Positions 5,985-38,107 of a stretch of 64,000 bases of DNA are shown piece by piece (the stretch's first letter is position 1; the number at the start of each line of letters is the position of its first letter). This DNA is from Trypanosoma brucei. Its lineage: Eukaryota. The translations under genes were made by a program, and so were the position numbers. Location of the stretch: contig CM000208.1 of the NCBI GenBank assembly GCA_000002445.1, positions 1,664,001 through 1,728,000 of the forward strand. The letters are read 5' to 3'. Below the pieces are notes generated by a model. The model did not search any database and had not been told where the DNA came from. It saw nothing but the letters and a program-made list of their open reading frames with translations.

Positions 5985-6006
5985 TGTGTGTGTGTGTGTG
6001 TGTGTG
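5985..6006. repeat. (TG)n microsatellite
   Basis: 'tgtgtgtgtgtgtgtgtgtgtg' immediately 3' of the stop codon at 5968. Confidence 0.9.
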
Positions 6007-6545: not shown

Positions 6546-6787
6546 CCCAAGGTAACCGTGAGGAGAGTGGAAGGAGGGAGTGTAAGAAGAAAAGTACAGG
6601 AAAGACCGCAATTCCACTCACTCGGACAAAACCCTCAAATACGTACCGCGCATTTGTCCATCCGCACGGGCCTAGCGGAGCCAAACAAACAAACGAGGGT
6701 GAGACAGGTAGTAGAGATCCAGGTTAATAAACTGTAATTTGTACCAAACGAAAGGCGCACGAGATACCAAAGTAACGCTGAAGGAGG

Positions 6788-10469: not shown

Positions 10470-10496
10470 TTGTGTGTGTGTGTGTGTGTGTGTGTG
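10470..10496. repeat. (TG)n microsatellite
   Basis: 13 TG units seen directly. Confidence 0.9.
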
Positions 10497-11309
10497 GATC
10501 GAAACCCACAAAAACGAAGTGAATTTCCGGGGTTTAGACTCATTTCTCTATTTTCAGAACGAGTATACGGGGTTGTGTTAGTTTAACCATTACTGGAATA
10601 TTTTTCCGTGCACACCCTACACTGTGGTATTGTTATGATGGGAAACGACAGCAATAACGAGATGGTGCCCTCATCCTTTTTGATGTGCCATTTTATGTTT
10701 ACTTTGCATGCTTATCAACAATCTGCGCACCTTTTCATGCCTTCCTCTTCTGCACCACTGCCCTTTCCGATTTTGGTCCGCGTCACGGTACTGCGTGCTT
10801 GCTTAAGAATCTTCGGTTGAGTGACAAGTGTTATTGTGAAACTACCGGACTGAATCCAACGCACCTATTCAACAACTCACGCGAAGGCTCACTCGTAATA
10901 TACGATGTGGGGGTAGTTGGAAGGGATGCGTATGTGGCCGTTTTTTGTAAGCGCAACCTGCGGCAGAGTGATGTGGCTACTTTGCCTTCTTGTTTCTGTC
11001 TTGCCACAGTATTTCCCCTCTTTTTATTTTTTTCGCACTGTTCTGTCCCTGAAGTTTCTCTCGCCTTACGTAAAGTTCACGAAGAAAAAAAAAGCAAAAG
11101 GTCTACTAATCTGTGAGGAAGAAGAAACAGGGGAACCTCCCATACTTTTTTAGGTGCGACCACTTCCCCACACATAGGGGAGACGGTGATTAACACCCAA
11201 ACAAACAGAAAGGTTGCAGATCTTTTATTTCTGTAGTATCCACGTGTTGCTCGCTGTTCCGCAACTTAGTGCGAGCTGTTTGACTGGAGCCTTCTTTGGA
11301 TAATCCAGG

Positions 11310-13016
11310 ATGGAGGAGACGTACAGTCCCTTTACGGGACGTCAAGGCCAGTACAATCAGGGCTACAATGGTGGAGGGCGACGAGATAGCCGCGGCGGTA
11401 TGGGAGAAAGAATAAAACCCGTTGACTGGGGGAATGTTTCTCTCGTTCCCGGAAACTGGAAGGTTCTCGATGGTAAGGCGATCAAAAAGGCAGGGGAGAT
11501 AAAGACATCCACCCCAGAAGCGGGACAACTCAGCGAGGAGGAGGCGACGAAATGGCGAGAAGAACATGTGATCACCATATTTGGTGATGATTGTCCTCCA
11601 CCTATGTCATCGTTTGATCACCTGTGTGGAATCGTTCCACCATACCTTCTAAAGAAGCTCACCGCCCAGAATTTCACTGCACCAACTCCCGTGCAAGCGC
11701 AGTCATGGCCCGTTCTTCTATCTGGTCGTGACCTTGTGGGGGTTGCGAAGACAGGCTCCGGAAAGACGCTTGGCTTCATGGTTCCTGCCCTCGCCCACAT
11801 TGCAGTGCAGGAACCCCTACGCTCCGGTGACGGTCCAATGGTTGTTGTACTGGCTCCCACCCGCGAACTTGCTCAGCAGATTGAAGAAGAAACAAAAAAG
11901 GTTATCCCCGGGGACGTGTATTGCGGTTGCGTTTATGGAGGAGCACCAAAAGGACCCCAGCTTGGGTTGCTGCGGAGAGGTGTGCACATTCTCGTCGCCA
12001 CACCAGGTCGTTTGATAGACTTCTTGGATATTAAACGCATTAACTTGCATCGTGTCACCTATCTCGTTCTAGATGAAGCAGATCGCATGCTTGATATGGG
12101 ATTTGAGCCGCAGGTTCGCAAAATATGCGGCCAGATAAGGCCAGACCGGCAGACAGTCATGTTCTCCGCCACTTGGCCACGTGAGATTCAGCGACTGGCA
12201 GCAGAATTTCAGAAGCAGTGGATACGCATCAGTGTGGGCAGTACGGAACTTCAGGCTAACAAGGACGTCACTCAGCGTTTCATTCTCACACAAGAGTTTG
12301 CGAAGCAGGACGAGTTGAGGAAGCTCATGCAAGAACATCGGGAGGAACGCGTGCTGGTTTTCTGCAAGATGAAGCGGACTGCGGATGAGCTGGAGCGGCA
12401 ACTAAGACGATGGGGCTACGACGCAATGGCTATTCATGGTGACAAGGAGCAGCGGCAGAGGGAGTTCATCCTAGCGAGGTTCCGTAAAGATCCACGATTG
12501 TGCCTTGTCGCCACAGACGTTGCTGCTCGAGGTCTGGACATCAAACAATTGGAAACTGTTATAAACTACGACTTCCCCATGCAGATCGACGACTACGTAC
12601 ATCGTATTGGCCGCACAGGCCGTGCAGGCGCGAAGGGAGATGCGTTTACGCTTATCACGAAGAAGGAGGCTCAAATAACACCTTCAGTGTTGAAGGAACT
12701 TATTGGGATCCTGGAGCGCGCACAACAGGAAATACCTGATTGGATGATCGAATGGAACGCGCAACAGCCGAGATACCAGGTGAAGCGGAATCGCGGTATG
12801 AACGGGTTTGGAAGACATCAAAGCGCCCCCTTCCTGCGTAACGGTCACCGCCCATCGTTCTCAGCGAACGGGAATTATAGTGCTCACGGAAATGGTACAT
12901 TTGGCCTTGGAAAGCACAACGACGACGCTGTTCCCTTCTCGTCATCCGCTATTCAATACAAGCGATTTGACAGTGACGACGAGGCGGAACCGTCCCGCAA
13001 GAAATACGCGAGATAG
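11310..13016 (+). CDS. ATP-dependent DEAD-box RNA helicase, DDX5/DDX17/Dbp2 subfamily
   Basis: Q-motif 'FTAPTPVQ', motif I 'AKTGSGKT', motif Ia 'PTRELA', motif II 'LDEADRMLDMGF', motif III 'SAT', motif VI 'HRIGRTGRAG'. The C-terminal tail is low-complexity and Gly/Asn/Arg-rich. Confidence 0.9.
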   Translation: MEETYSPFTGRQGQYNQGYNGGGRRDSRGGMGERIKPVDWGNVSLVPGNWKVLDGKAIKKAGEIKTSTPEAGQLSEEEATKWREEHVITIFGDDCPPPMSSFDHLCGIVPPYLLKKLTAQNFTAPTPVQAQSWPVLLSGRDLVGVAKTGSGKTLGFMVPALAHIAVQEPLRSGDGPMVVVLAPTRELAQQIEEETKKVIPGDVYCGCVYGGAPKGPQLGLLRRGVHILVATPGRLIDFLDIKRINLHRVTYLVLDEADRMLDMGFEPQVRKICGQIRPDRQTVMFSATWPREIQRLAAEFQKQWIRISVGSTELQANKDVTQRFILTQEFAKQDELRKLMQEHREERVLVFCKMKRTADELERQLRRWGYDAMAIHGDKEQRQREFILARFRKDPRLCLVATDVAARGLDIKQLETVINYDFPMQIDDYVHRIGRTGRAGAKGDAFTLITKKEAQITPSVLKELIGILERAQQEIPDWMIEWNAQQPRYQVKRNRGMNGFGRHQSAPFLRNGHRPSFSANGNYSAHGNGTFGLGKHNDDAVPFSSSAIQYKRFDSDDEAEPSRKKYAR

Positions 13017-13656
13017 GCGGAATCCGTTTTTCAACCGAAATCACGATACATGTTGAGCCAGCACCAGCAGTGACTGATGATGAAGGGGAAAATGGAAGAT
13101 TTTTTGATCAACAGCTAGTAAGTTAACGAGTAATACGCAATGAAAAGCGATCGAATTCCATGAATTGTTCCGGAAGTGAGAACAGTAGGTATATATATAT
13201 TTATATACGTAATGAATATGGAAGGAACTGGTAAAGGAAAGTAGTATCGTTCAACAAAGTAACCTTTAAAAAAATTGTAACGAAGGAAATGTGCACTTCT
13301 CTTCTTTGAGTGCAGGTGAATCGCTTGACGTTCCTCATTAAATACGGGGAAATGAGAATCTGTAGTGGATGAGTGTAAGCTCCGTCTCTGACAGAATCTA
13401 CCGGATTTTTGTGACGACACTTGCAAGAAGCTTGTCGATCCTCTTTTCATGTGTGTTGTAGACATTTCCCCACTCGGCTCTTTCTGCGCATCCTTTTTCA
13501 AATAATTACACTAAGACAAATGTTGTGCTATACAACAATAAGAGGGTGTTGCATCGCGCTTAAAAACGTTTGTGAACTCCATTGCCGCTCCTGCTATCAT
13601 GCTAATCCCTTTGTTACCCTAATTTACCATGAGATAGGGAGGCGCTACGTTAGCAT

Positions 13657-14418
13657 ATGAATACTATGCAGGGAATTATGAGAGATCTGCGGATGGTTAT
13701 GTCCCCCTTTCTTCTTGTTCTCGTTGTCGCAATTTCCACACCGGCCAGTGCTGCCCGTTTCTTGCTGCAAAACACTCAGCCAATATGCTTTGTTGAGGAG
13801 GTAGGAGAGGACACGCGGTTCTTGACGGGTGTTTACACGCGCAGTGACTCTCTGCCCTATCCACCTACTGTTAAAATGACCATCAAGTCACCGAGTGGCT
13901 CGGTGACGTGGGAGGGCAAAGTTGTGGCAGGAACAAACTCTTTCAGCGCTCCTGTCTCAGCTGGGTCCATTGGCAAGTATCAGATTTGTGTGAGTGTGAG
14001 CACATGGGGATTTAGGGCTTCAGATGATGGATCATCTGTTGTTATGGACGTTAACATTGACCAGAAAACAACTGTAATATCCAAGACGGAAGTGCCTATG
14101 CTGAAGAGACAGAATGTGGGGGGTATGGAAGTGTTCACTTTCCGAGACTTTGGGGGCCAACAAAAGGATATCTTGCGTCCACCAGAATACTTTAAACGCG
14201 TTGAAGGTGCGCTGTCGAAGCTGTTGATGCAGGTGAAAGACGTTAGTTCCGGTATTGATCACAACATTGAGCGTTTCTCACGCATGTTTACCACTTCAGA
14301 AAACACCCACAAGCGCATATGGGCGTTTGGTGTGCTTACCGTGCTGGTCACGATCGCCACCATATGGCTGCAGTTCCGCCTACTGAAGTCCACTCTGCGG
14401 GAGAAGAAGTTGGTGTGA
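13657..14418 (+). CDS. p24/emp24/GOLD-domain cargo receptor family protein
   Basis: N-terminal signal-peptide-like hydrophobic stretch and a luminal beta-rich region. A single C-terminal TM helix is followed by a short tail ending 'LLKSTLREKKLV', the characteristic p24 cytosolic tail with dibasic/KKxx-like signal. Confidence 0.65.
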   Translation: MNTMQGIMRDLRMVMSPFLLVLVVAISTPASAARFLLQNTQPICFVEEVGEDTRFLTGVYTRSDSLPYPPTVKMTIKSPSGSVTWEGKVVAGTNSFSAPVSAGSIGKYQICVSVSTWGFRASDDGSSVVMDVNIDQKTTVISKTEVPMLKRQNVGGMEVFTFRDFGGQQKDILRPPEYFKRVEGALSKLLMQVKDVSSGIDHNIERFSRMFTTSENTHKRIWAFGVLTVLVTIATIWLQFRLLKSTLREKKLV

Positions 14419-15143
14419 TGCCCTTATGATATGACTCCTTTCTCTTCTCCCGCATGGGGTTTGGAGACCGGAAGTGTACTCCTTTAACTCCTAAATAGCA
14501 AGTGAAGCGTGAAAGTAAGGAACGACGAAGAAGCCAAGGGGTGGAGTTATCATTTTTTTTTACCTTCTGGTGGGGCGTAGTTCCTTTAAAACTTGTGAAT
14601 TTTTCTTACCCGATGGTAGAAGTGATAGAACACAAGCGAAGAGGAAATGAGAGACGCGTAGCAAAAGGTTTATAAAAGGAGGAGACTGGCTCTGCCTTGG
14701 TTTGTGTGTGTGACGGCGGAGGGAAGAGGATGAAAAGGGGGAGCGTTGTTTCGTTATTTACGTTTTTTGCAATTTCCAGGTGTGTTTTTCTTGTTTCAAG
14801 AGGGAGGCTTAGGATACCGCAGAAAATGCGACACTAGACCTACTTGCCCACACGCCACAACGAGGGTGGAAGGCAGCAGTACAAAGGTAACACTTAACGA
14901 GCACGGACCAACTATGAAAAAAAAAACAAAGATAACACTGTTCGTCTTACAAGCGACTTCTCCAATGTCTGGTGTCACTGGGATACCTCTCCACCTCATT
15001 CGCCACCGCGATAAACTCATTTATCGAGCAGAACTTCAACACTTGGCTCTTTTAATTTCCTGATGAATTTATGGGACTTGATAGAAATCTAGGTTAGAGA
15101 AAACGTCGGTTATATTGCCGTGTCCAGTCTAAGGAAACAATGA

Positions 15144-15792
15144 GCGATGGGCGATATTTGGCTCTCATCTCTGTGTGATGACATCACTAAGCGTTTCTGA
15201 CGGAATTCGTATGCTGAACACATAACAAACGCAAATCACTCCACACTGATAACAGCTCCGCAGGCCCCAATCCCTTACCGTACATTCGCAATGAGGCAAA
15301 CGATGAAAAAATAAATGGATCGCTGACTCTGAACACATTATCTGATTGACAGGACATTTCTTTGACTATACCTCTGAATTGTGCCCCACTTCTCTCTCCA
15401 TTCCTCCCTCTTTCTGTTGGTTTCCCCCCCCCCCCCTCCTGCTGCTGCCACTACTATTCCTCCAGGTGTCTATTGCTCCTGGTGCATTACCATTAACTGC
15501 GGTATGATTACAAAGCAATTTTATCCTCACCCTGACGTGAGTGGTTCTGTGACGAGAAACCGATTGACAATAATACCAAGATCTGCTATGAGCCCGTGAT
15601 GTTGTGTGCAGACGCTGTATTAATCCCGCCCCGTATGGCAAACTCATGCCCGGGGCGATTCATGCACAGCGGAGATGCGTATTGTCTCACTTCCCCTTAT
15701 CGTAAAGTCCACTTTCTTTCCTGTTGCGTGCCTGTTTCAAATGTACGCCCGCGCGGTTTTGTGAATGAGGCTCCCCATTCCGCTGTTGTTGC
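15144..15792. repeat. 649-bp dispersed/direct repeat, copy A (upstream of BUD31)
   Basis: Near-identical by eye to 17156..17803, differing only in the length of an internal poly-C run. Flanking sequence differs on both sides of both copies. Confidence 0.85.
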
Positions 15793-16104
15793 GGGGTAAT
15801 CTGGTTTTGTGCGTGGCGGGTGCTTGCGCTGCGTTTAGTAGACGTTAACCGATGGAGTTGTTACAAACCCCCCATTTATTCGGATTCGCTATTCCGCAGG
15901 GCGGTGGTTTAGCTCTTCGAGCACATTTGTAGTGCGGGGCGGTGCTGTTACTGCTACTGAGGTGGCTCACTGCTTGTTTAACCACGGTGCCCACTTTTTT
16001 TTCCTTTTTTTGACACCTTAGCTCTCCTCTTCTTCACTTTCGCGTTCTTCCGTTTTCAGGTTAGGAGCTGTGTAGTAAACCAACGAGTATTTTTTTTTTT
16101 AGGG

Positions 16105-16830
16105 ATGCCGAAAATCCGCCCAGGAATGAAGCGGCCGCCACCGGGGTTTGAAAAAATCAATGACAAACTTGACGAATACGACGCAGAGATGCGACTGGCT
16201 CTTTCTGAGGACCCTTCCCAGGCTGAACTACCGGTGCCGTCCAAACGAAAGGACAAACAAAATAAGGTTGAAGCGACTAAAGACAAGCATGCTCAAAGTG
16301 TACAGCGCGGTGATGGTGGTGTAGCGGGCCACTCGGACGGCGAATTAGACAAACCGGAACCCCCCTTGTGGCGAGTGGCGCGAATCAATCGGGAGCGCAC
16401 ACGTTATGTGTTTAATGCGTGTTTCCGAGAGCGGATAATTGCGGAGGAGGTTCTCGACTACTGCTGTGAGATGAATTTCATTGATGCTGGTCTCGTTCGG
16501 CGCTGGTCACTTGCTGGGTATGAACGGCTGTGTTGCAATACTTGCTGCTTACCGGGAGCTGCTAGTGAAGCGGCTCGTATGGTGAATAAGTTTGCAAACC
16601 GTGACAAAAAAGATCGGCGCACTAATGGTAATGATGACACCGGGGGTACCTGCATTTGCCGCGTGCCCGATGAGAAGCGTCTGGCCAAGGCGTTCACTAG
16701 GTGTATGGTGTGTGGGTGCTCTGGTTGTGGTTCGGGGGGTAAGCGCAAGCACGACACCGAGGAAAAAGATAGTGTATCCGACATGAAAAAAGTACGCACG
16801 GACGACTACGAGGTGAAATCGGGTAAATAG
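16105..16830 (+). CDS. BUD31: BUD31/G10 family pre-mRNA splicing factor homolog
   Basis: N-terminus 'MPKIRPGMKRPPPGFEKI...LDEYDAEMR' matches G10 'MPKV.T..K.PP.G.E.I...L.E.D.KMR'. Further matches are 'RYVF...F.RE.I..E...YC', 'W...GYE.LCC..C' and 'TCICRVP', with a C-terminal Cys cluster 'CMVCGCSGCG'. It carries a large basic/acidic insertion between the N-terminal and Cys-rich parts. Confidence 0.8.
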   Translation: MPKIRPGMKRPPPGFEKINDKLDEYDAEMRLALSEDPSQAELPVPSKRKDKQNKVEATKDKHAQSVQRGDGGVAGHSDGELDKPEPPLWRVARINRERTRYVFNACFRERIIAEEVLDYCCEMNFIDAGLVRRWSLAGYERLCCNTCCLPGAASEAARMVNKFANRDKKDRRTNGNDDTGGTCICRVPDEKRLAKAFTRCMVCGCSGCGSGGKRKHDTEEKDSVSDMKKVRTDDYEVKSGK

Positions 16831-27257: not shown

Positions 27258-28727
27258 ATGATGCAAGGATTTCCCTCCTTAGGGGAAAAGGACCCAGCTG
27301 CCAAGCCACCAGCAGAGGGAAAACCGACCTCAGCTTCGGGAGAGAAACAACCGAGCGAAGCAGTACAGGGAATACCGCTATACCAAGGTGATGGTGATGA
27401 TAAAGAAGGATTGAAACGTTTTGTGGTACAGGGGTATAAGGATGTGTGGGCTGCAATATTATACATTTTATGCATTTTCGCCATCGCTGGAATCGGAGTA
27501 CACGCAATGTGGTCGAGAGGCTCCTCCGAAGAAAAACAAGAGGTTAAAAAAACAACAGCAGAAAATGAGCCTTCAAATTCAAAGTCCCTTTGGAGTGTCT
27601 ACTTTCTTGTTGGTGTGGCTGCTGCCGCTTCCATCGGTGCGGCGTCCGTGTCGTTTCTACTGATGCGTATGTTTCCACGCAAGACAATTCTTTTCGCAAA
27701 CATTGCCGCCATAATTATAAACATCATTTCAGCTTTGCTAGCAATATTATCAGGACACATGGTAAGCGGTATCCTCATGATGACATTATGTGCCCTGCAC
27801 ATAATGTGGTTTTTCTTTGCACGGCACCGAATTCCTTTTGCTGCAGAACTTCTCAAGGCCTCTATCGATGTGTTGTCTGGCTACAAGGCGGTATATTTAT
27901 TCAATGTCATGTTATGTGTTGGTTGCACAGGATTACTTATGCTGTGGGCAAACGCTTTTATGTGGACGTATCAAAGAAGTCAAGCGCAAGATTCATCATT
28001 CTCCGGTATAATTTACCTTTTCCTTATGCTTTTCTTATTTTGGACATCGCAGGTGACAACTAATCTGATGCATGTAACAACTGCTGGACTTACTGCTACA
28101 TGGTACTTTGCTGGTAAGGAGAATATGCCAAAGAATCCCACCCTCGCCTCATTCAAGCGAGGTACCACCACAAGCTTCGGCTCCATTTGCTTTGGGTCAC
28201 TGCTTGTGGCAATTATCCGTCTCATACGGTGGCTCGTGTCAACCGCAGAAGACAGTGAACATGAAATATTACGCTGTGTATTCCTTTGTATTATTGGTTG
28301 TTTGGAGAGGCTGATGGAATACTTCAACACATACGCATTTGTTCATGTTGCCATCTATGGTTGTGGGTACATTGAAGCAGCGAAAATGACATGGGAGTTG
28401 TGTAAACAGTGTGTGTTTTCTGCCCTGTTCAATGACACTCTGATTGATGTAACACTCGGGCTACTTGCTACTTGTGGTTCGCTACTGGTTGGTAGTGTTT
28501 TTGGTTTTCTCTTAAAATCCTGGGCAGCATTCGCGCTTGGTTTTGCCGTTTCTATATTGGTTCACCTCCTCATATTCTCCCCCGTGGGTAGTGCTGTAAC
28601 CACCTTATTCGTATGTTATGCGGAAGTGCCTGAGGGCCTTGAGCACTCATCCCCTGACTTGTACGCGGCTCTTCAGAGAACTGACCAAAACGGCACATCA
28701 AATGGAGCAGCACCTCCACGTGTGTAA
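27258..28727 (+). CDS. CTL/Pns1-like (SLC44 / 'Choline_transpo' family) multi-pass membrane transporter, array copy 1
   Basis: Conserved family core 'ATWYFAGKENMPKNPTLASFKRGTTTSFGSICFGSLLVAIIRLIRW' and 'CLERLMEYFNTYAFVHVAIYGCGYIEAAKMTWEL...NDTLIDVTLGLLATCGSLLVG'. These match Pns1/CTL 'WYF.....P..P...S..R.....GS.AFGSL..AI...IR' and 'CL...L.Y.N.YA....AIYG..F...AK.....L..N.......D.V.D..L..G.L.V'. The protein has ~10 predicted TM helices. The substrate cannot be inferred. Confidence 0.75.
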   Translation: MMQGFPSLGEKDPAAKPPAEGKPTSASGEKQPSEAVQGIPLYQGDGDDKEGLKRFVVQGYKDVWAAILYILCIFAIAGIGVHAMWSRGSSEEKQEVKKTTAENEPSNSKSLWSVYFLVGVAAAASIGAASVSFLLMRMFPRKTILFANIAAIIINIISALLAILSGHMVSGILMMTLCALHIMWFFFARHRIPFAAELLKASIDVLSGYKAVYLFNVMLCVGCTGLLMLWANAFMWTYQRSQAQDSSFSGIIYLFLMLFLFWTSQVTTNLMHVTTAGLTATWYFAGKENMPKNPTLASFKRGTTTSFGSICFGSLLVAIIRLIRWLVSTAEDSEHEILRCVFLCIIGCLERLMEYFNTYAFVHVAIYGCGYIEAAKMTWELCKQCVFSALFNDTLIDVTLGLLATCGSLLVGSVFGFLLKSWAAFALGFAVSILVHLLIFSPVGSAVTTLFVCYAEVPEGLEHSSPDLYAALQRTDQNGTSNGAAPPRV

Positions 28728-29407
28728 AACTTCTTAAGCTCATGCATATAAGGAGGATATGTGTTTGTCTCTCTTCTGCAAAAACTTTCCCTCCCATACC
28801 CAATTTCGCACACTCGCACCGTGTGAAGAAGAGTCAAATATCTTTTGTTTTTGATTCACTATATATAATGCACTGAAGCGTGTGTTATGCATGCAAATAA
28901 ATTGATAACATCGCTGACTCTTCTTTTTGTTCTATTATATTACTCTGTTCGATTTGCTCTTGACTATTTTGTATTTTCTTTCCGTTTCATGTGATGGATG
29001 CGAGGGACATAACCACAACATATTGAATGTGTCGCGGTGTAAACTGCTCTGTTGTGAGCGATCGGTATTGTGTTAGTATTTTTGTTCCAAGTGTTGAGGA
29101 AGTTGAATAGAGTCCTGATGCAGTCCACTCATGCGGTAAGCAGTGATGCGCCTTAGTGTGAGAATTCCTTTGATACTGTGTGATTTGCACACTTCCATTC
29201 TTCTTCGTCACTGGAAGCTGTTGCTACTGCATACTAATGCATCATCATTTCCTATTTCCTTTCCTCTTCCATAATTTTCCATTTTCTCTGTTTTTTAATC
29301 AAACAAATAAGATATATTGCAAGTGTACGCAATTGCTATCCAGCAACAAAGGGCTATAGACACTATTATCTCAGTGATAAGGTATTGTTTATTTCTGAAG
29401 AAGGACG

Positions 29408-30880
29408 ATGAACAAGCAATACGGAACAGAAACAAATCGCTACGACTATGATGTGTGGCAGGAAAATCAGCGGAATTGTCGGCAGGAATGTTCACCACAA
29501 GCTGTGCCGCTACAAGGAATACCGCTATACCAAGGTGATGGTGATGATAAAGAAGAGCTGAAACGTTTTGTGGTACAAGGGTATAAGGATGTGTGGGCTG
29601 CAATATTATACATTTTATGCATTCTTGCAACTATTGGGCTTGGAATATATAATATTGTGAAGCCTGATGCTTCAGGAGAAGAAGAAGAGGAAAGTGTCGT
29701 ATCGGTTAAATCATCTAACCCGTTTTCTGGTGTGTTTAAAAGTGTTTACATTTGGATTGCCGTTGCTGGTGGAATTGCCATAGCTGTGGCGTCGCTTTCC
29801 TTTCTCTTTATGAGGATGTTTCCTCGGAAGATTATTATTGTGGCAAATGTTGTCTCGATTATCATCAATATTGGAGGCGCCGCTGCCGCCATTGTGATGG
29901 GGGTGCTTCCACTTGGCATTGCTTTACTCATTATGTGCGCTATGCACATACTGTGGTTTTACTTTGCACGGCACCGAATTCCTTTTGCTGCAGAACTTCT
30001 CAAGGCCTCTATCGATGTGTTGTCTGGCTACAAGGCGGTATATTTATTCAATGTCATGTTATGTGTTGGTTGTGCGGGGTTTACCATATTATGGGGGTAC
30101 GCAGCTGTTCCTTCACTAGAAACTGCCAGTAACAAAGGTGACAGTGGGGCACTAGCGGTTTTGCTACTTCTTTTCCTTATGTTGGTTTTTTTTTGGTCAT
30201 CTCAAGTTACTGGAAATCTGATGCATGTAACAACTGCTGGACTTACTGCTACATGGTACTTTGCTGGTAAGGAGAATATGCCAAAGAATCCCACCCTCGC
30301 CTCATTCAAGCGAGGTACCACCACAAGCTTCGGCTCCATTTGCTTTGGGTCACTGCTTGTGGCAATTATCCGTCTCATACGGTGGCTCGTGTCAACCGCA
30401 GAAGGTAGTGAACATGAAATATTACGCTGTATATTCCTTTGTATTATTGGTTGTTTGGAGAGTTTGATGGAATACTTCAACACATACGCATTTGTTCATG
30501 TTGCCATCTATGGTTGTGGGTACATTGAAGCAGCGAAAATGACATGGGAGTTGTGTAAACAGTGTGTGTTTTCTGCCCTGTTCAATGACACTCTAATTGA
30601 TGTAACACTGAATCTACTTGTTACTTGTGGTTCGCTACTGGTTGGTAGTGTTGTCGGTCTACTCTTCAGATCCTGGGTAGCATTCGCGCTTGGTTTTGCC
30701 GTTTCTATATTGGTTCACCTCCTCATATTCTCCCCCGTAACCAGTGCTGTAACCACCTTATTCGTATGTTATGCGGAAGTGCCTGAGGGCCTTGAGCACT
30801 CATCCCCTGACTTGTACGCGGCTCTTCAGAGAACTGACCAAAACGGCACATCAAATGGAGCAGCACCTCCACGTGTGTAA
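29408..30880 (+). CDS. CTL/Pns1-like transporter, array copy 2
   Basis: Same conserved core as copy 1. Distinct N-terminus 'MNKQYGTETNRYDYDV' and a unique TM2-4 segment. Confidence 0.75.
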   Translation: MNKQYGTETNRYDYDVWQENQRNCRQECSPQAVPLQGIPLYQGDGDDKEELKRFVVQGYKDVWAAILYILCILATIGLGIYNIVKPDASGEEEEESVVSVKSSNPFSGVFKSVYIWIAVAGGIAIAVASLSFLFMRMFPRKIIIVANVVSIIINIGGAAAAIVMGVLPLGIALLIMCAMHILWFYFARHRIPFAAELLKASIDVLSGYKAVYLFNVMLCVGCAGFTILWGYAAVPSLETASNKGDSGALAVLLLLFLMLVFFWSSQVTGNLMHVTTAGLTATWYFAGKENMPKNPTLASFKRGTTTSFGSICFGSLLVAIIRLIRWLVSTAEGSEHEILRCIFLCIIGCLESLMEYFNTYAFVHVAIYGCGYIEAAKMTWELCKQCVFSALFNDTLIDVTLNLLVTCGSLLVGSVVGLLFRSWVAFALGFAVSILVHLLIFSPVTSAVTTLFVCYAEVPEGLEHSSPDLYAALQRTDQNGTSNGAAPPRV

Positions 30881-31579
30881 AACTTCTTAAGCTCATGCAT
30901 ATAAGGAGGATATGTGTTTGTCTCTCTTCTGCAAAAACTTTCCCTCCCATACCCAATTTCGCACACTCGCACCGTGTGAAGAAGAGTCAAATATCTTTTG
31001 TTTTTGATTCACTATATATAATGCACTGAAGCGTGTGTTATGTATGCATTTTACCGGCTTCACCATGATAAACCACATACTTGATGTAGTAGGTGAAATT
31101 AGATGCCGCAGTATCTGGTCGTGTGTAGCAGTAAATATATTAATAAATAACGACTCTTTATTATCGTAACTGCGCAAAAAGTGTTTAACATGAGCGATAT
31201 TTTTTATGATACGTACGACATTATCGTGAGCGATCGGTATTGTGTTAGTATTTTTGTTCCGTGTGTTGAGGAAGTTGAATAGAGTCCTGATGCAGTCCAC
31301 TCATGCGGTAAGCAGTGATGCGCCTTAGTGTGAAAATTCCTTTGATACTGTGTGATTTGCACACTTCCATTCTTCTTCGTCACTGGAAGCTGTTTCTACT
31401 GTATACTAATGCATCATCATTTCCTATTTCCTTTCCTCCTCCATCATTTTCCATTTTCTCTGTTTTGTAATCAAACAAATAAGATATATTGCAAGTGTAC
31501 GCAATTGCTATCCAGCAACAAAGGGCTATAGACACTATTATCTCAGTGATAAGGTATTGTTTATTTCTGAAGAAGGACG

Positions 31580-33052
31580 ATGAACAAGCAACACGGAACA
31601 GAAACAAATCGTTACGACTATGATGTGTCGCAGAAGGATCGGCGAAATTCTGATTCTCGGGAGTGTTCACCACATGCTGTGCCGCTACAAGGAATACCGC
31701 TATACCAAGGTGAAGGTAATAATCAAGAAGGATTGAAACGTTTTGTGGTACAAGGGTACAAGGATGTGTGGGCTGCAATATTATACATTTTATGCATTCT
31801 TGCAACTATTGGGCTTGGAATATATAATATTATGCGGAAGGATTCTTCGATGAAGGATGTAGAAAGCACTAATACAACAGCAGAAAATGAGCCTTCAAAT
31901 TCAAAGTCCCTTTGGAGTGTCTACTTTCTTGTTGGCGTGGCTGCTGCCGCTTCCATCGGTGCGGCGTCCGTGTCGTTTCTACTGATGCAGAAGTTTCCAC
32001 GCAAGACAATTCTTTTTGCAAACATTGCTGCCATAATTATAAACATCATTTCAGCTCTTTTGGCGTATCGATCAGGCTATATTGTGGCTTCTGCTGTAAT
32101 GATGACATTATGTGCCCTGCACATACTGTGGTTTTACTTTGCACGGCACCGAATTCCTTTTGCTGCAGAACTTCTCAAGGCCTCTATCGATGTGTTGTCT
32201 GGCTACAAGGCGGTATATTTATTCAATGTCATGTTATGTGTTGGTTGCACAGGATTACTTATACTGTGGGCAAACGCTTTTATGTGGGCGTTTCGGAGGG
32301 TTAAATGGGAGACATCCGCTTCTTTCGGGTGGCCTCTGCTTGTGTTCCTTATGCTTTTCTTATTTTGGACATCGCAGGTGACAACTAATCTGATGCATGT
32401 AACAACTGCTGGACTTACTGCTACATGGTACTTTGCTGGTAAGGAGAATATGCCAAAGAATCCCACCCTCGCCTCATTCAAGCGAGGTACCACCACAAGC
32501 TTCGGCTCCATTTGCTTTGGGTCACTGCTTGTGGCAATTATCCGTCTCATACGGTGGCTCGTGTCAACCGCAGAAGACAGTGAACATGAAATATTACGCT
32601 GTATATTCCTTTGTATTATTGGTTGTTTGGAGAGTTTGATGGAATACTTCAACACATACGCATTTGTTCATGTTGCCATCTATGGTTGTGGGTACATTGA
32701 AGCAGCGAAAATGACATGGGAGTTGTGTAAACAGTGTGTGTTTTCTGCCCTATTCAATGACACTCTGATTGATGTAACACTCGGGCTACTTGCTACTTGT
32801 GGTTCGCTACTGGTTGGTAGTGTTTTTGGTTTTCTCTTAAAATCCTGGGCAGCATTCGCGTTTGGTTTTGCCGTTTCTATATTGGTTCACCTCCTCATAT
32901 TCTCCCCCGTGGGTAGTGCTGTAACCACCTTATTCGTATGTTATGCGGAAGTGCCTGAGGGCCTTGAGCACTCATCCCCTGACTTGTACGCGGCTCTTCA
33001 GAGAACTGACCAAAACGGCACATCAAATGGAGCAGCACCTCCACGTGTGTAA
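31580..33052 (+). CDS. CTL/Pns1-like transporter, array copy 3 (mosaic of copy-2-type N-terminus and copy-1-type middle)
   Basis: N-terminus 'MNKQHGTETNRYDYDV' is copy-2-like. The middle 'TTAENEPSNSKSLWSVYFLVGVAAAASIGAASVSFLLM' is identical to copy 1. The C-terminal half is identical to copy 1. Confidence 0.75.
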   Translation: MNKQHGTETNRYDYDVSQKDRRNSDSRECSPHAVPLQGIPLYQGEGNNQEGLKRFVVQGYKDVWAAILYILCILATIGLGIYNIMRKDSSMKDVESTNTTAENEPSNSKSLWSVYFLVGVAAAASIGAASVSFLLMQKFPRKTILFANIAAIIINIISALLAYRSGYIVASAVMMTLCALHILWFYFARHRIPFAAELLKASIDVLSGYKAVYLFNVMLCVGCTGLLILWANAFMWAFRRVKWETSASFGWPLLVFLMLFLFWTSQVTTNLMHVTTAGLTATWYFAGKENMPKNPTLASFKRGTTTSFGSICFGSLLVAIIRLIRWLVSTAEDSEHEILRCIFLCIIGCLESLMEYFNTYAFVHVAIYGCGYIEAAKMTWELCKQCVFSALFNDTLIDVTLGLLATCGSLLVGSVFGFLLKSWAAFAFGFAVSILVHLLIFSPVGSAVTTLFVCYAEVPEGLEHSSPDLYAALQRTDQNGTSNGAAPPRV

Positions 33053-33725: not shown

Positions 33726-35243
33726 ATGACGCAAAAGGGGTACGTCGGAGTTCCTGAGGAACCATACAGGTCTAAATTTACTCCTGAGGTGGGACCTTAT
33801 TATGGATTTGAAGGAGAAGGAACACATGCTGTGCCGCTACAAGGAATACCGCTATACCAAGGTGAAGGTAATAATCAAGAAGGATTGAAACGTTTTGTGG
33901 TACAAGGGTATAAGGATGTGTGGGCTGCAATATTATACATTTTATGCATTCTTGCAACTATTGGGCTTGGAATATATAATATTTGTCAGCAGGGATTGCG
34001 TAGTTTAATATCTGCTGATGTAGTAAATATTTTTTGGGCTTGTAATGATGATAGTTGTATTGACTCGGTGTGTCTTTTCTTTCTTCTTGCTTTTGCTTTT
34101 TCAGTTATTGTATGTTTGTCCTCTTTGTCGTTGATGAAACGTTTTGCTAGCGGAATAATCAAGGGTTGCAACGTTATTTTGCTTATTTTTTATGTCGTTG
34201 CTTTCCTTTTTTCGGTATGGGCACTTAATAACGCTTTTGCTATTCCATGGTTTTGTATGCTGGTTGTGCATTTACTTTGGCTTTTCTTTGCAGGTCGGCG
34301 TATTCCTCTCGCTGCTGAGCTTCTGAAAAGCTCTTCTACTGTGGTATGTAACTACAAAGCACTGTGCGCAGTCAACGCCGTCCTGTTTGGTGCACATGTC
34401 TTTTTCAGTGTTATGTGGGCGTCTGTTATGAAACCACTATATGCGCAGCTGGCGAAGATGGAGTTAAATCCGAGCGCTGGTGGAGCTCGCAATGAGGAAG
34501 ATTTGACTCTCAACATTCTATTCCTAAGCTTGCTTGCTCTGCTGTTCGTCATGTTTTGGGCGACGCAGGTGACAACTAATCTGATGCATGTAACAACTGC
34601 TGGACTTACTGCTACATGGTACTTTGCTGGTAAGGAGAATATGCCAAAGAATCCCACCCTCGCCTCATTCAAGCGAGGTACCACCACAAGCTTCGGCTCC
34701 ATTTGCTTTGGGTCACTGCTTGTGGCAATTATCCGTCTCATACGGTGGCTCGTGTCAACCGCAGAAGACAGTGAACATGAAATATTACGCTGTATATTCC
34801 TTTGTATTATTGGTTGTTTGGAGAGTTTGATGGAATACTTCAACACATACGCATTTGTTCATGTTGCCATCTATGGTTGTGGGTACACTGAAGCAGCGAA
34901 AATGACATGGGAGTTGTGTAAACGGTGTTCTTGTGCTGCTTTGTTTAATGACAGACTGATTGATGTGACATTATTTGTTGCTTCATTTATTGGTTCGCTA
35001 CTGGTTGGTGTTATCGTCGGTCTTGTGTCTGCATCGGGAGGTGGATTTGCGTTTGGTTTCACCGTTTCTATATTGGTTCACCTTTTCATATTCTCCCCCG
35101 TGGGTAGTGCTGTAACCACCTTATTCGTATGTTATGCGGAAGTGCCTGAGGGCCTTGAGCACTCATCCCCTGACTTGTACGCGGCTCTTCAGAGAACTGA
35201 CCAAAACGGCACATCAAATGGAGCAGCACCTCCACGTGTGTAA
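33726..35243 (+). CDS. CTL/Pns1-like transporter, array copy 4 (subfamily B, divergent transmembrane core)
   Basis: The ORF-track start at 33642 reads through the conserved 5' flank. The first Met aligned with the other copies is at 33726 ('MTQKGYVGVPEEPYRSKF'). The 'GEGNNQEGLKRFVVQGYKDVWAAILYILCILATIGLGIYNI' segment is shared with copy 3. Then comes a divergent TM region with 'RRIPLAAELLKSSSTVVCNYKAL'. The invariant core and shared tail follow. Confidence 0.7.
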   Translation: MTQKGYVGVPEEPYRSKFTPEVGPYYGFEGEGTHAVPLQGIPLYQGEGNNQEGLKRFVVQGYKDVWAAILYILCILATIGLGIYNICQQGLRSLISADVVNIFWACNDDSCIDSVCLFFLLAFAFSVIVCLSSLSLMKRFASGIIKGCNVILLIFYVVAFLFSVWALNNAFAIPWFCMLVVHLLWLFFAGRRIPLAAELLKSSSTVVCNYKALCAVNAVLFGAHVFFSVMWASVMKPLYAQLAKMELNPSAGGARNEEDLTLNILFLSLLALLFVMFWATQVTTNLMHVTTAGLTATWYFAGKENMPKNPTLASFKRGTTTSFGSICFGSLLVAIIRLIRWLVSTAEDSEHEILRCIFLCIIGCLESLMEYFNTYAFVHVAIYGCGYTEAAKMTWELCKRCSCAALFNDRLIDVTLFVASFIGSLLVGVIVGLVSASGGGFAFGFTVSILVHLFIFSPVGSAVTTLFVCYAEVPEGLEHSSPDLYAALQRTDQNGTSNGAAPPRV

Positions 35244-35916
35244 AACTTCTTAAGCTCATGCATATAAGGAGGATATGTGTTTGTCTCTCTTCTGCAAAAA
35301 CTTTCCCTCCCATACCCAATTTCGCACACTCGCACCGTGTGAAGAAGAGTCAAATATCTTTTGTTTTTGATTCACTATATATAATGCACTGAAGCGTGTG
35401 TTATGCATGCAAATAAATTGATAACATCGCTGACTCTTCTTTTTGTTCTATTATATTACTCTGTTCGATTTGCTCTTGACTATTTTGTATTTTCTTTCCG
35501 TTTCATGTGATGGATGCGAGGGACATAACCACAACATATTGAATGTGTCGCGGTGTAAACTGCTCTGTTGTGAGCGGTCAGTATTGAGTTAATATTTTTG
35601 TTCCGTGTGTTGAGGAAGTTGAATAGAGTCCTGATGCAGTCCACTCATGCGGTAAGCAGTGATGCGCCTTAGTGTGAAAATTCCTTTGATACTGTGTGAT
35701 TTGCACACTTCCATTCTTCTTCGTCACTGGAAGCTGTTTCTACTGCATACTAATGCATCATCATTTCCTATTTCCTTTCCTCCTCCATCATTTTCCATTT
35801 TCTCTGTTTTTTAATCAAACAAATAAGATATATTGCAAGTGTACGCAATTGCTATCCAGCAACAAAGGGCTATAGACACTATTATCTCAGTGATAAGGTA
35901 TTGTTTATTTCTGAAG

Positions 35917-37470
35917 ATGACGCAAAAGGGGTACGTCGGAGTTCCTGAGGAACCATACAGGTCTAAATTTACTCCTGAGGGGGGACCTTATTATGGATTT
36001 GAAGGAGAAGGAACACATGCTGTGCCGCACAAGGGAATACCGCTATACCAGGTGAAGGTTAATATCAAAAAGGGATTGAAACGTTTTGTGGTCAAGGGTA
36101 TTAGGGATGTGTGGGCTGCAATTTAATACATTTATGCATTTCTTGCAACTATTGGCTTTGCGTGGTATAATACTTTTTCTCAAAATTTTTCTGAAATTAT
36201 ATAGGATAGTGTTGGAAAGTTATTCTGGCGCAGTTCTGACGAATGCTTTACTGTTTTTCTCTCTGTTCTTTTCTTTGTTTCTTCTGTCAGTTCAGTAATT
36301 TTATCCTTGTTTTCTTTATCGTTGATGAAGCGCTTTCCACATGATATGATCATCACGGCAAACCTTCTATTCTTTGCCGTGTGCATTGTTGGTTTTTTGT
36401 TGTCTATTCTTTGGGGAAATCTTTATTTACTTCTTTTATGTTTGGGTCTTTTTATTGTGCATTGGTTATGTTTTACGGAGTTGCGGAACCGCGTTCCATT
36501 CGCTGCTGAGCTTCTGAAAAGCTCTTCTACTGTGGTATGTAACTACAAAGCACTGTGCGCAGTCAACGTCGTCCTCTTTGGTATGTTTACCCTTTTTCTG
36601 GTTTTGTGGTGCTCCGCTTTCTCTGCACTGAGCAATGTGTTGAGTAAACAACCAGACCCGAGCAGTGGTGTGAGTGGTAAACGAGGCAATTCATTTTTGA
36701 TTATTTCTGTATATTTACTGCACCTAATGTTGCTGTTTGTCATGTTTTGGGCGACGCAGGTGACAACTAATCTGATGCATGTAACAACTGCTGGACTTAC
36801 TGCTACATGGTACTTTGCTGGTAAGGAGAATATGCCAAAGAATCCCACCCTCGCCTCATTCAAGCGAGGTACCACCACAAGCTTCGGCTCCATTTGCTTT
36901 GGGTCACTGCTTGTGGCAATTATCCGTCTCATACGGTGGCTCGTGTCAACCGCAGAAGACAGTGAACATGAAATATTACGCTGTATATTCCTTTGTATTA
37001 TTGGTTGTTTGGAGAGTTTGATGGAATACTTCAACACATACGCATTTGTTCATGTTGCCATCTATGGTTGTGGGTACACTGAAGCAGCGAAAATGACATG
37101 GGAGTTGTATAAACGGTGTTCTTGTGCTGCTTTGTTTAGTTGTTTTTTTGTTGACGCTATGTTGTGTCTATTTGCAGTACTAAGCGCCCTTCTTGTTTGT
37201 GCTGTTGTTTGTACTGCTTATGGTTTAGTCTTTGATTTATCGTTTGGTATTTTGCATATTACCGCTGAAATCTTCGTATTCAGTTTTGGTGTTTGTATGT
37301 TGGTTCACCTCTTCGTCTTTTCTTCCGTAACCAGTGCTGTAACCACCTTATTCGTATGTTATGCGGAAGTGCCTGAGGGCCTTGAGCACTCATCCCCTGA
37401 CTTGTACGCGGCTCTTCAGAGAACTGACCAAAACGGCACATCAAATGGAGCAGCACCTCCACGTGTGTAA
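35917..37470 (+). pseudogene. CTL/Pns1-like transporter, array copy 5, disrupted by frameshifts in the N-terminal third (probable pseudogene or sequencing-error-containing copy)
   Basis: The copy-4-type start 'MTQKGYVGVPEEPYRSKFTPE' (35917) runs only to 36126. The frame resumes at 36307 with a subfamily-B middle 'RVPFAAELLKSSSTVVCNYKALCAVNVV' and the invariant core. The 36000-36310 interval shows multiple substitutions/indels relative to copy 4. Confidence 0.6.
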
Positions 37471-38107
37471 AACTTCTTAAGCTCATGCATATAAGGAGGA
37501 TATGTGTTTGTCTCTCTTCTGCAAAAACTTTCCCTCCCATACCCAATTTCGCACACTCGCACCGTGTGAAGAAGAGTCAAATATCTTTTGTTTTTGATTC
37601 ACTATATATAATGCACTGAAGCGTGTGTTATGTATGCAAATAAATTGATAACATCGCTGACTCTTCTTTTTGTTCTATTATATTACTCTGTTCGATTTGC
37701 TCTTGACTATTTTGTATTTTCTTTCCGTTTCATGTGATGGATGCGAGGGACATAACCACAACATATTGAATGTGTCGCGGTGTAAACTGCTCTGTTGTGA
37801 GCGGTCAGTATTGAGTTAATATTTTTGTTCCGTGTGTTGAGGAAGTTGAATAGAGTCCTGATGCAGTCCACTCATGCGGTAATAGGAGTGACATTCCAAT
37901 GTTTGTACATTATTTGTGTCGTTTTAAATTTATTACGTCTTTTTTTTTTTTGTGTGTGTGTGTGCTTCTTGTCTTTCTGATGTTGTGGTGATGTCTTCTA
38001 TCTGTTTTTTTTTCAGTTTCTATTCATTGCTTAATATTGTTTTTTTACTTCTTTTTTATTGTTGGTGTAGATACGGATTGTAGAAGTCGTGTTGTTGGTC
38101 TGCCTGA

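What the first reader, a model, noticed from the sequence alone, without database searches (positions are those of the whole stretch)
33726..37470. Second transporter subfamily (copies 4-5) with a rewritten transmembrane core inside the same array
Copies 4 and 5 replace the copy 1-3 segment 'HILWFYFARHRIPFAAELLKASIDVLSGYKAVYLFNVMLCVGC' with 'HLLWLFFAGRRIPLAAELLKSSSTVVCNYKALCAVNAVLFG'. They carry entirely different TM2-TM5 sequences. Copy 4 also has an extra Cys-rich extracellular loop ('FWACNDDSCIDSVC') and a distinct post-core region ('KRCSCAALFNDRLIDVTLFVASFIGS...SGGGFAFGF'). Two functional classes, possibly with different substrates or localisation, are kept in one concerted-evolution unit.
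Basis: partly seen in the sequence, partly recalled or inferred. Interest (0 to 1): 0.5.

Follow-up and report, generated by a model that had tools for sequence, protein, structure and literature searches.

The report
Divergent paralogue pair in trypanosome CTL array
Two of five tandem "choline-transporter-like" membrane-protein genes of Trypanosoma brucei keep old, very different outer helices while sharing a DNA-identical central part with their neighbours; this kind of mosaic array is already documented, and nothing shows the two genes do a different job.

Summary
The window is T. brucei brucei TREU927 chromosome 10. The five copies are Tb927.10.6720 to Tb927.10.6760, all with Pfam PF04515 (CTL/SLC44). 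All the quoted copy-4 strings are at the stated coordinates.

Copies 4 and 5 share a distinct N-terminal tail, the AH1 segment and "KRCSCAALF". They group together in trees of the variable segments. Copies 1-3 group instead with a T. congolense gene. The M6-M8 core, the C-terminal tail and the intergenic DNA are DNA-identical or nearly so across all five units. So "two sequence lineages in one partly homogenised array" is real.

Four points in the finding are overstated or wrong.
- Copies 4 and 5 are only 14-51% identical to each other in M2-M5.
- Copy 2 also differs strongly from copies 1 and 3.
- The cysteine-bearing loop is a replacement shared by both copies, not an extra loop of copy 4.
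- Copy 5 as written here has two in-frame stops, inside a 270-nt tract that looks like a reference-sequence error. The T. b. gambiense orthologue is intact.

The rewritten part is the family's most variable periphery. Pocket helices M6 and M8 are identical. Different substrates are not supported: CTL proteins may not transport choline at all. The mosaic was already tabulated as array 103 by Jackson et al. (2007, 2010).

The parts
27258..33052 (+). Copies 1-3 (Tb927.10.6720, 6730, 6740), lineage A of the CTL array: CDS 27258-28727, 29408-30880, 31580-33052
   Evidence: PF04515 at 224-230 bits. Exact matches to EAN78086-88. Gene IDs taken from the Jensen 2014 supplement.
33726..35243 (+). Copy 4 CDS (Tb927.10.6750, 505 aa), intact lineage-B gene
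   Evidence: PF04515 at 232 bits. Exact match to EAN78089/Q38AT1. AF2 pLDDT 89 and pTM 0.89; Foldseek hit to Pns1 9f63, TM 0.83.
33726..33837 (+). Lineage-B N-terminal tail, shared by copies 4 and 5 (CDS nt 1-112)
   Evidence: Identical to 35917-36028 except for 1 nt. Keeps 11 of 12 family-conserved N-tail columns, against 8-9 in copies 1-3.
33838..33983 (+). Homogenised block covering the conserved pre-M1 motif and M1. The exact match with copy 3 begins at 33823, inside the preceding tail block
   Evidence: Exact runs with copy 3 (33823-33910 and 33912-33983, one mismatch at 33911) and with copy 2 (33886-33983).
33984..34547 (+). Copy-4-specific variable block 1: loop 1, M2, M3, M4, AH1, M5 and the outer half of M6
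   Evidence: 0-32% aa identity to copies 1-3, with AH1 at 58%. dS saturated, dN/dS 0.3-0.55.
34309..34377 (+). 69-nt island shared only by copies 4 and 5 (AAELLKSSSTVVCNYKALCAVN, AH1)
   Evidence: Exact match to 36500-36568.
34548..34917 (+). Homogenised core: cytosolic half of M6, AH2, M7, M8, AH3
   Evidence: 370-nt exact match with copy 5, 324 nt with copy 3, 230+60 nt with copy 1. 94-100% aa identity across all copies.
34918..35085 (+). Copy-4-specific variable block 2: M9 and the outer part of M10
   Evidence: M9 is 53-59% identical to copies 1-3 and 38% to copy 5.
35086..35916 (+). Homogenised 3' block: end of M10, C-terminal tail, stop codon, 3' UTR and intergenic spacer
   Evidence: 491-nt and 482-nt exact runs with copies 1 and 3. 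Intergenic alignment 94-100% identical between units.
35917..37470 (+). Copy 5 (Tb927.10.6760), a lineage-B reading frame interrupted in this sequence. The longest open ORF is 36307-37470
   Evidence: Stops TAA at 36124 and TAG at 36202. No protein in the NCBI record. Intact 517-aa orthologue CBH15737 in T. b. gambiense.
35981..36250 (+). Aberrant tract in copy 5 that holds both stop codons
   Evidence: 33 of the 36 differences from the gambiense orthologue lie here. They include 10 single-base indels that alternate strictly between deletion and insertion. Only 3 of 23 substitutions are transitions, against 33 of 52 in the background (Fisher p = 5e-5).
36147..36738 (+). Copy-5-specific variable block 1 (loop 1 to outer M6), containing the shared island 36500-36568
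36739..37108 (+). Homogenised core of copy 5
37109..37324 (+). Copy-5-specific variable block 2: M9, a 12-aa loop insertion and outer M10. The family motif FNDxL is changed to FSCFF
   Evidence: N408S, D409C, L411F; loop 435-449 at low pLDDT.
37325..37882 (+). Homogenised 3' block of copy 5. The repeat unit ends at about 37882, before the BRCT gene

Best explanation
Region 33726-37470 holds the last two units of a five-unit tandem array of CTL/SLC44-fold membrane-protein genes on T. brucei chromosome 10.

The array evolves by partial concerted evolution. Unequal crossing-over and gene conversion keep several parts identical at the DNA level: the spacers and UTRs, the M1 region, the cytosolic half of M6 through AH3, and the M10 end plus C-terminal tail. 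The N-terminal tail, extracellular loop 1, helices M2-M5 with the outer half of M6, and M9 with outer M10 have diverged to saturation. Those segments now behave as independent, stably inherited haplotype blocks. They may be too diverged to recombine, held apart by selection, or both.

On these blocks, copies 4 and 5 form an old lineage B, distinct from lineage A (copies 1-3). Lineage B is still under purifying selection and is predicted to keep the 10-helix bowl fold.

Shown here: the mosaic, its stability across three subspecies, the incongruent segment trees, the predicted fold, and the retention of conserved residues.

Inferred: copy 4 is a working paralogue with the same central pocket as its neighbours (M6 and M8 identical, one M9 neighbour changed from T to R) but different lipid-facing and outer helices and loops. 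It would therefore more probably differ in partners, lipid environment or membrane targeting than in ligand.

Copy 5 is the more aberrant and dispensable member. It has lost the M9 motif, and in T. b. equiperdum no separate copy-5 unit remains (only its 3' end, fused onto copy 4). It is interrupted in this reference sequence, most probably by sequence errors.
For: - Identity of the locus.
- Block map.
- The same haplotype blocks are present in TREU927, DAL972 and T. b. equiperdum.
- Copy number and chimeras differ between strains. Gambiense lacks copy 3. Equiperdum has a copy-4/2/5 chimera and no copy 5. Copy 1 carries a 64-nt conversion difference.
- Segment trees: Var1 (c1-3 + Tco P0007) bootstrap 72, c4+c5 100; Var2 83 and 72; the core clusters by species.
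- dS is 0 to 0.09 in the core, more than 1 or saturated in Var1. dN/dS is 0.3-0.55.
- Family-conserved columns kept: copy 4 keeps 7/9 in Var1 and 6/6 in Var2; copy 5 keeps 8/9 and 3/6.
- AF2 models: pLDDT 89 and 87. Best PDB hits are Pns1 and hCTL1.
- Jackson et al. list this array (no. 103, Tb10.70.0040: 4+4 annotated copies, 3 shared isoforms, 1 unique in each subspecies, PHI p<0.001, 4-6 breakpoints, 1557 sites) as a recombinant mosaic.
Against: - There are no copy-specific expression, translation or localisation data for Tb927.10.6750 or 6760. Splice-site read counts are the same for all five genes because the 5' regions are identical. Proteomics and TrypTag report only 6740 or 6730.
- The older age of lineage B rests on neighbour-joining trees with moderate support and long branches. 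Accelerated evolution after a brucei-specific duplication would give the same topology.
- Only two T. congolense proteins were available, one of them partial. P0010 is not demonstrably a lineage-B orthologue (bootstrap 36; not among the top local phmmer hits).
- dN/dS at saturation is imprecise.
- A confident AF2 model does not prove function.
Confidence: 0.6

Rival explanations
1. Copies 4 and 5 are redundant duplicates under relaxed constraint, drifting towards pseudogenes. They look like genes only because gene conversion keeps repairing their core, tail and UTRs.
For: - Copy 5 has two stops in this window.
- In T. b. equiperdum no separate copy-5 unit is left; only its 3' end survives, fused onto copy 4.
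- Copy 5 has lost 3 of 6 conserved columns in M9, including the residue aligned with pocket residue Asp432 of Pns1.
- Copy 4 lacks the conserved FPR motif, reading 'FASG'.
- dN is about 0.8-1.0 against copies 1-3.
- No proteomic or tagging record names 6750 or 6760.
Against: - Copy 4 is open and nearly identical in three subspecies (4 nt differences from gambiense).
- dN/dS is 0.3-0.5 rather than 1.
- All 14 family-invariant columns and 7 of 9 conserved Var1 columns are kept in copy 4.
- Hydrophobic helix periodicity and the predicted fold are intact in both copies.
- Copy 5 is intact in gambiense, and the damage in TREU927 is confined to one tract of unnatural character.
Confidence: 0.22
2. 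The variable blocks are kept different by diversifying selection on exposed parts of a flagellar-pocket or surface protein, for example antibody pressure or host or vector ligands. The array would then be a small repertoire of surface variants.
For: - The most divergent elements include the extracellular loop 1 (0-10% identity), the M5-M6 loop (15-aa insertion in lineage B) and the M9-M10 loop (12-aa insertion in copy 5).
- Tb927.10.6730 localises to the flagellar-pocket 'ring' in TrypTag.
- The Lister 427 orthologue of 6740 appears in the tables of the bloodstream-form surface-proteome study.
Against: - Membrane-embedded helices M2-M5 are as divergent as the loops.
- dN/dS is below 1 everywhere measured.
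- Each copy type is almost invariant between subspecies.
- The exposed loops are short.
Confidence: 0.1
3. The apparent second subfamily is an assembly artefact of a repetitive region in the reference genome.
For: Copy 5 does contain one tract that looks like a sequence error.
Against: Copy 4 and the variable blocks of copy 5 are reproduced in independent assemblies of T. b. gambiense and T. b. equiperdum, in the same order and context.
Confidence: 0.02

Closest known systems
CTL/SLC44 family: S. cerevisiae Pns1 (PDB 9f63) and human CTL1 (9qu3, 7wwb)
   Same: - Pfam PF04515 over the whole domain.
- Sequence hit to Pns1, E = 5e-29.
- Predicted 10-helix bowl with three amphipathic helices; TM-score 0.83 to Pns1.
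- Invariant residues are kept.
   Different: - Loop 1 is about 20 residues, not the large Cys-rich glycosylated domain of metazoan CTL1.
- The pocket residues are not those of Pns1 (Arg296 corresponds to Thr, His397 to Thr).
- The biochemical function of the family is unresolved. No choline transport was seen for CTL1, Pns1 or CherI, and a review reports no effect of CTL RNAi on choline uptake in T. brucei.
Variable tandem gene arrays of T. brucei with sequence mosaics and concerted evolution (Jackson 2007, PMC1855330; Jackson et al. 2010, PMC2854126)
   Same: This is array 103 (Tb10.70.0040) of those surveys. They record 4+4 annotated copies, 3 shared isoforms and 1 unique isoform in each subspecies, and significant recombination tests. 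This matches what I see: copy 3 is unique to brucei and copy 5 is annotated only in gambiense.
   Different: The surveys list the array as 'hypothetical protein' in tables only. They do not describe the A/B lineages, map the blocks on the CTL fold, or note the odd tract in copy 5. Equating Tb10.70.0040 with this array is my inference from chromosome, copy counts, alignment length (1557) and proximity to TbPTP1.
T. congolense CTL pair (P0007 and P0010)
   Same: This is a second African trypanosome with one conventional and one highly divergent CTL paralogue. Their core and C-terminal tail are homogenised within the species (core 88%, C-terminus 91% identity; core tree bootstrap 92).
   Different: Var1 of P0010 is no closer to copies 4/5 (22-23%) than to anything else. 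Orthology with lineage B is therefore unproven, and the divergent forms may have arisen independently.
T. brucei AQP2/AQP3 and THT1/THT2 tandem transporter pairs (from memory; THT is array 105)
   Same: Adjacent paralogues that exchange segments by recombination yet stay functionally distinct.
   Different: For those pairs, distinct function and regulation were shown experimentally. Here nothing functional is known for copies 4 and 5.

Membership tests
CTL / SLC44 (Pfam PF04515 Choline_transpo) | Full-length match to the family profile above the curated threshold | tested here: met
   Copy 4 scores 232.3 bits and the copy 5 ORF 218.4 bits, against a cut-off of 26.9; profile positions 2/3-326 of 326 are matched.
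CTL / SLC44 (Pfam PF04515 Choline_transpo) | Ten transmembrane helices forming a bowl, with three amphipathic helices (M4-AH1-M5, M6-AH2-M7, M8-AH3-M9) | tested here: met
   AF2 models of copy 4 (pLDDT 89.3) and of gambiense copy 5 (87.0) show these elements. Foldseek hits: Pns1 E = 1e-18, TM 0.83; hCTL1 TM 0.67-0.68. These are predictions, not experiments.
CTL / SLC44 (Pfam PF04515 Choline_transpo) | Family-invariant and nearly invariant residues retained | tested here: met
   The 14 invariant columns are invariant across all 84 aligned sequences, including copies 4 and 5. Copy 4 keeps 94 of 100 conserved columns. Copy 5 loses N408, D409 and L411 in M9.
CTL / SLC44 (Pfam PF04515 Choline_transpo) | Choline or ethanolamine transport activity | not testable with these tools
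   Literature only. No activity was found for CTL1, Pns1 or CherI in oocytes (PMC13160678). T. brucei CTL RNAi was reported not to affect choline uptake (PMC4010794 citing Macedo 2013).
T. brucei variable tandem array under partial concerted evolution (Jackson 2007/2010) | Head-to-tail same-strand paralogues with long DNA-identical tracts that extend into non-coding flanks | tested here: met
   Exact runs reach 491 nt and cross the stop codon into the spacer.
T. brucei variable tandem array under partial concerted evolution (Jackson 2007/2010) | Different segments of the gene give incongruent phylogenies | tested here: met
   The Var1 and Var2 trees separate lineages A and B, with T. congolense P0007 inside A. 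The core tree groups by species. Neighbour-joining only, with moderate support.
T. brucei variable tandem array under partial concerted evolution (Jackson 2007/2010) | Subspecies-specific copies or chimeras | tested here: met
   Copy 3 is absent from gambiense. Equiperdum has a chimeric copy 4 and no copy 5. Copy 1 carries a small conversion difference.
Decaying pseudogene (copy 5) | Disabling mutations in the reading frame | tested here: met
   TAA at 36124 and TAG at 36202, plus ten single-base frame shifts.
Decaying pseudogene (copy 5) | Damage spread along the gene with a natural mutation spectrum, and shared by close relatives | tested here: not met
   33 of 36 differences lie in 270 nt. 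The indels alternate strictly between deletion and insertion. Transitions are 13% against 63% in the background (p = 5e-5). The gambiense orthologue is intact.

The most novel reading that the evidence does not exclude
Lineage B (copies 4/5) is a functionally distinct class of CTL-fold protein that selection has kept from being homogenised since before the T. brucei / T. congolense split. It would share the central pocket with lineage A but carry a swapped peripheral module (N-terminal tail, loop 1, M2-M5, M9). That module would direct it to a different membrane domain, partner or lipid environment. The array would then be a natural domain-swap experiment on a protein family whose function is still unknown.
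Probability: 0.3. Interest if true: 0.45.

Novelty: already known. Interest (0 to 1): 0.25.

Why it matters
The result matters little for trypanosome biology as it stands. The genes are annotated, and the array is already listed among the recombinant mosaic arrays of T. brucei.

Three things are of modest use.
- The function of the CTL/SLC44 family is open again after the 2026 structural and transport study. An array with the M6-M8 part of the pocket identical and the peripheral helices very different offers ready-made chimeras for testing what the periphery does.
- The block map tells anyone doing RNA-seq, Ribo-seq, proteomics, RNAi or tagging which coordinates are copy-specific: 33984-34547 and 34918-35085 for copy 4. 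Everything else multi-maps.
- Tb927.10.6760 may be wrongly broken in the TREU927 reference.

Tried and rejected
- A database search with the copy-4 variable block alone returned no hit, not even the protein itself. This is a limit of the tool. I replaced it with a local phmmer run against the 133 proteins already fetched. There the copy-4 block scores no better against copies 1-3 (32-39 bits) than against environmental kinetoplastid homologues (up to 49 bits), and T. congolense P0010 is not among the top hits.
- The T. congolense locus could not be fetched: P0010 is not on record.
- Early literature searches for 'choline transporter-like' plus T. brucei gave nothing relevant.
- The searches for copy-specific expression data mostly failed. 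Antwi 2016 supplements had no hit. Vasquez 2014 lists only 6730. JBC 2026 has no supplement held. The id I tried for the Urbaniak phosphoproteome is not held. The Jensen 2014 read-count tables were cut; the splice-site table shows equal counts for all five genes, so multi-mapping cannot be excluded.
- Rfam found no RNA family anywhere in the window.
- I considered that the copy-5 tract was a patch copied from elsewhere in the window. Ten of its eleven 25-mers sampled occur once in the window; the eleventh, in the 5' part shared with copy 4, occurs twice.
- I rejected 'extra loop' and 'rewritten core' as descriptions.


Full report
WHAT THE LOCUS IS

All long ORFs of the window lie on the + strand. 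Copies 1-4 are exact matches to T. brucei brucei TREU927 proteins EAN78086-89 (UniProt Q38AT4, Q38AT3, Q38AT2, Q38AT1). The next gene is the BRCT protein EAN78090. A ribosome-profiling supplement gives the gene IDs and start coordinates: Tb927.10.6720, 6730, 6740, 6750 and 6760. These fit the window exactly at an offset of 1,667,366 on chromosome 10. TbPTP1 (6690) lies upstream and VPS45 (6780) downstream. All five copies match Pfam PF04515 along the whole profile at 218-232 bits.

CHECK OF THE OBSERVATION

Every peptide quoted for copy 4 is present at the stated place. A DNA alignment of the five CDSs shows a sharp mosaic. Alignment columns 901-1020 and 1441-1563 are 100% identical in all five copies, and the whole span of about 841-1200 is at least 83%, mostly 95% or more. 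Columns 241-840 and 1201-1440 fall to 20-70%.

The spacers between units are also 94-100% identical. The exception is a 206-nt copy-2-specific replacement in its 3' UTR. Exact-match runs give these boundaries for copy 4:
- lineage-B tail, 33726-33837
- shared M1 block, to 33983
- private block, 33984-34547, with a 69-nt island at 34309-34377 shared only with copy 5
- shared core, 34548-34917
- private block, 34918-35085
- shared 3' block, 35086-35916, running through the stop codon into the spacer

1. Copy 5 does not carry the quoted copy-4 string. Only its second half is shared.
2. Copies 4 and 5 differ strongly from each other: 43, 24, 14 and 51% identity in M2, M3, M4 and M5, and 38% in M9. 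Copy 2 is only 43-56% identical to copy 1 in the same helices. Copy 3 is a recombinant, with a copy-2-like tail, a copy-4-like M1 block and a copy-1-like body.
3. The cysteine-bearing loop replaces a loop of equal length. It is also present in copy 5, and most of its cysteines are predicted to sit in the first turns of M2.
4. Copy 5 is not open in this window. It has TAA at 36124 and TAG at 36202.

STRUCTURE

An AlphaFold2 model of copy 4, built on 84 homologues, has pLDDT 89 and pTM 0.89. Its only significant PDB matches are yeast Pns1 (9f63, TM 0.83) and human CTL1. The gambiense copy 5 gives the same architecture at pLDDT 87. Its 12-residue insertion forms a low-confidence M9-M10 loop.

The published Pns1 and CTL1 structures show ten helices in a bowl, with M1/M2 peripheral, M3/M4 a mobile hairpin, and the pocket lined by M6, M8, M9 and M10 (PMC13160678). 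On that nomenclature, the divergent blocks are loop 1, M2-M5, the outer half of M6, and M9 with outer M10. The cytosolic half of M6, together with AH2, M7, M8 and AH3, is identical or nearly so.

The rewritten part is therefore mainly the periphery, not the core. It is also the part least conserved in the whole family. Only 9 columns are at least 75% conserved among non-brucei homologues in the roughly 190 residues of variable block 1, against 58 in the core. Copy 4 keeps 7 of those 9 and copy 5 keeps 8. Copy 5 loses 3 of 6 in M9, where FNDxL becomes FSCFF. One of these is the residue aligned with Pns1 pocket residue Asp432.

AGE AND SELECTION

Synonymous divergence is 0 to 0.09 in the core. 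It is above 1, or saturated, in variable block 1. There dN/dS is 0.3-0.55, including 0.48 for copy 4 against copy 5.

Neighbour-joining trees by segment are incongruent.
- Variable block 1: copies 1-3 join T. congolense P0007 (bootstrap 72); copies 4+5 form their own clade (100).
- Variable block 2: the same, at 83 and 72.
- Core: sequences cluster by species (T. congolense pair 92).

So the A/B split looks older than the brucei-congolense split, while the core is homogenised within each species. Three caveats apply: branches are long, support is moderate, and only two T. congolense sequences were available. T. congolense P0010, itself highly divergent, cannot be shown to be a lineage-B orthologue. 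T. vivax has a syntenic array without a divergent type.

STABILITY AND TURNOVER

The same haplotype blocks are found in T. b. gambiense and T. b. equiperdum. Copy 4 differs from its gambiense orthologue at 4 of 1518 nt. Unit composition varies between strains.
- TREU927: 1, 2, 3, 4, 5.
- DAL972: 1, 2, 4, 5.
- Equiperdum: 1, 2, 3 and a chimeric copy 4, whose 3' variable block is part copy-2-like and part copy-5-like.

This matches Table 2 of Jackson et al. 2010 for array 103 (Tb10.70.0040): 4 and 4 annotated copies, 3 shared isoforms, 1 unique in each subspecies, 1557 sites, PHI p<0.001, 4-6 breakpoints. The array is also in the 2007 survey. The mosaic nature of this array is therefore already published, though only as a table row labelled 'hypothetical protein'.

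FUNCTION

No copy-specific data exist in the material I could reach.
- Tb927.10.6730 is listed among flagellar-pocket 'ring' proteins in TrypTag.
- The Lister 427 orthologue of 6740 was detected in the tables of the bloodstream-form surface-proteome study.
- 6730 is phosphorylated on both termini, which fits both ends being cytosolic.

None of these separates the copies, because the tails, core and UTRs are identical. The 'different substrates' idea is weak for two reasons. M6 and M8 are identical. And the family's transport role is itself in doubt: CTL1, Pns1 and CherI showed no choline or ethanolamine transport, and RNAi of the T. brucei CTLs reportedly left choline uptake unchanged (secondary citation). 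The 3' UTRs of copies 1, 3, 4 and 5 are essentially the same, so there is no hint of separate stage regulation for lineage B. Only copy 2 has its own UTR segment, which is conserved in all three genomes.

COPY 5 IN THIS WINDOW

Against the intact gambiense gene, 33 of 36 alignment differences fall in CDS nt 65-334 (window 35981-36250). Only 3 fall in the other 1220 nt. The tract contains ten single-base indels that alternate strictly deletion, insertion, deletion, and so on, with net length zero. It also contains 23 substitutions, of which 3 are transitions and 13 are A/T or G/C swaps. Elsewhere at the locus, 33 of 52 differences are transitions (Fisher p = 5e-5). No other 300-nt window in about 25 kb of comparison comes close: 27 differences against 11 or fewer.

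This is not how pseudogenes decay. A low-quality stretch in the reference is the simplest reading, though I cannot prove it. The NCBI record has no protein for this unit. The TriTrypDB v5 list used by Jensen et al., which excludes pseudogenes, still carries Tb927.10.6760 with a start at this ATG.

VERDICT

Its functional part is unsupported. The phenomenon, and this very array, are already in the literature. Interest is low to moderate.

Noticed in passing
window 35981-36250 (copy 5, Tb927.10.6760, CDS nt 65-334): This tract has ten strictly alternating single-base deletions and insertions, plus 23 substitutions with almost no transitions, relative to the intact T. b. gambiense orthologue. It creates both stop codons. 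It looks like a sequencing or finishing error in the TREU927 reference rather than real decay.
   Followed up: partly
window 31043-31248 (3' UTR of copy 2, Tb927.10.6730): A 206-nt segment is unique to the copy-2 3' UTR. It replaces about 187 nt that are identical downstream of copies 1, 3, 4 and 5. It is 99.5% conserved downstream of copy 2 in T. b. gambiense and T. b. equiperdum, so it may be a copy-specific regulatory element.
   Followed up: partly
window 31580-33052 (copy 3) versus L001: Copy 3 is a recombinant: copy-2-like N-terminal tail, copy-4-like M1 block, copy-1-like M2-M5. It is absent from T. b. gambiense DAL972, which has units 1, 2, 4, 5.
   Followed up: yes
L002:10001-11518 (T. 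b. equiperdum copy 4), nt 1286-1380: The 3' variable block is chimeric, part copy-2-like ('GLLFRSW') and part copy-5-like ('VCMLVHLFVFSSVTSAV'). No separate copy 5 exists. This points to an unequal crossover that fused units 4 and 5.
   Followed up: partly
window 27368-27431 (copy 1, CDS nt 111-174): Six clustered differences from the gambiense and equiperdum copy 1 turn 'GEGNNQEG' into the copy-2-like 'GDGDDKEG'. This is a short, subspecies-specific gene-conversion tract.
   Followed up: partly
window 32203-32655, 34352-34846, 36543-37037 (- strand): Antisense ORFs of 150-164 aa recur inside the homogenised core of copies 3, 4 and 5. They are probably a by-product of the repeated sequence.
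   Followed up: no
L003 (T. vivax, 4151-16680): T. vivax has a syntenic CTL array upstream of the BRCT and Sec1/VPS45 genes. The CTL copies are interleaved with a repeated 222-aa ORF that has no Pfam hit, and two CTL copies are truncated.
   Followed up: no
P0007 and P0010 (T. congolense IL3000): T. congolense also has one conventional and one very divergent CTL paralogue. Their core and C-terminal tail are homogenised within the species, which parallels the T. brucei situation.
   Followed up: partly
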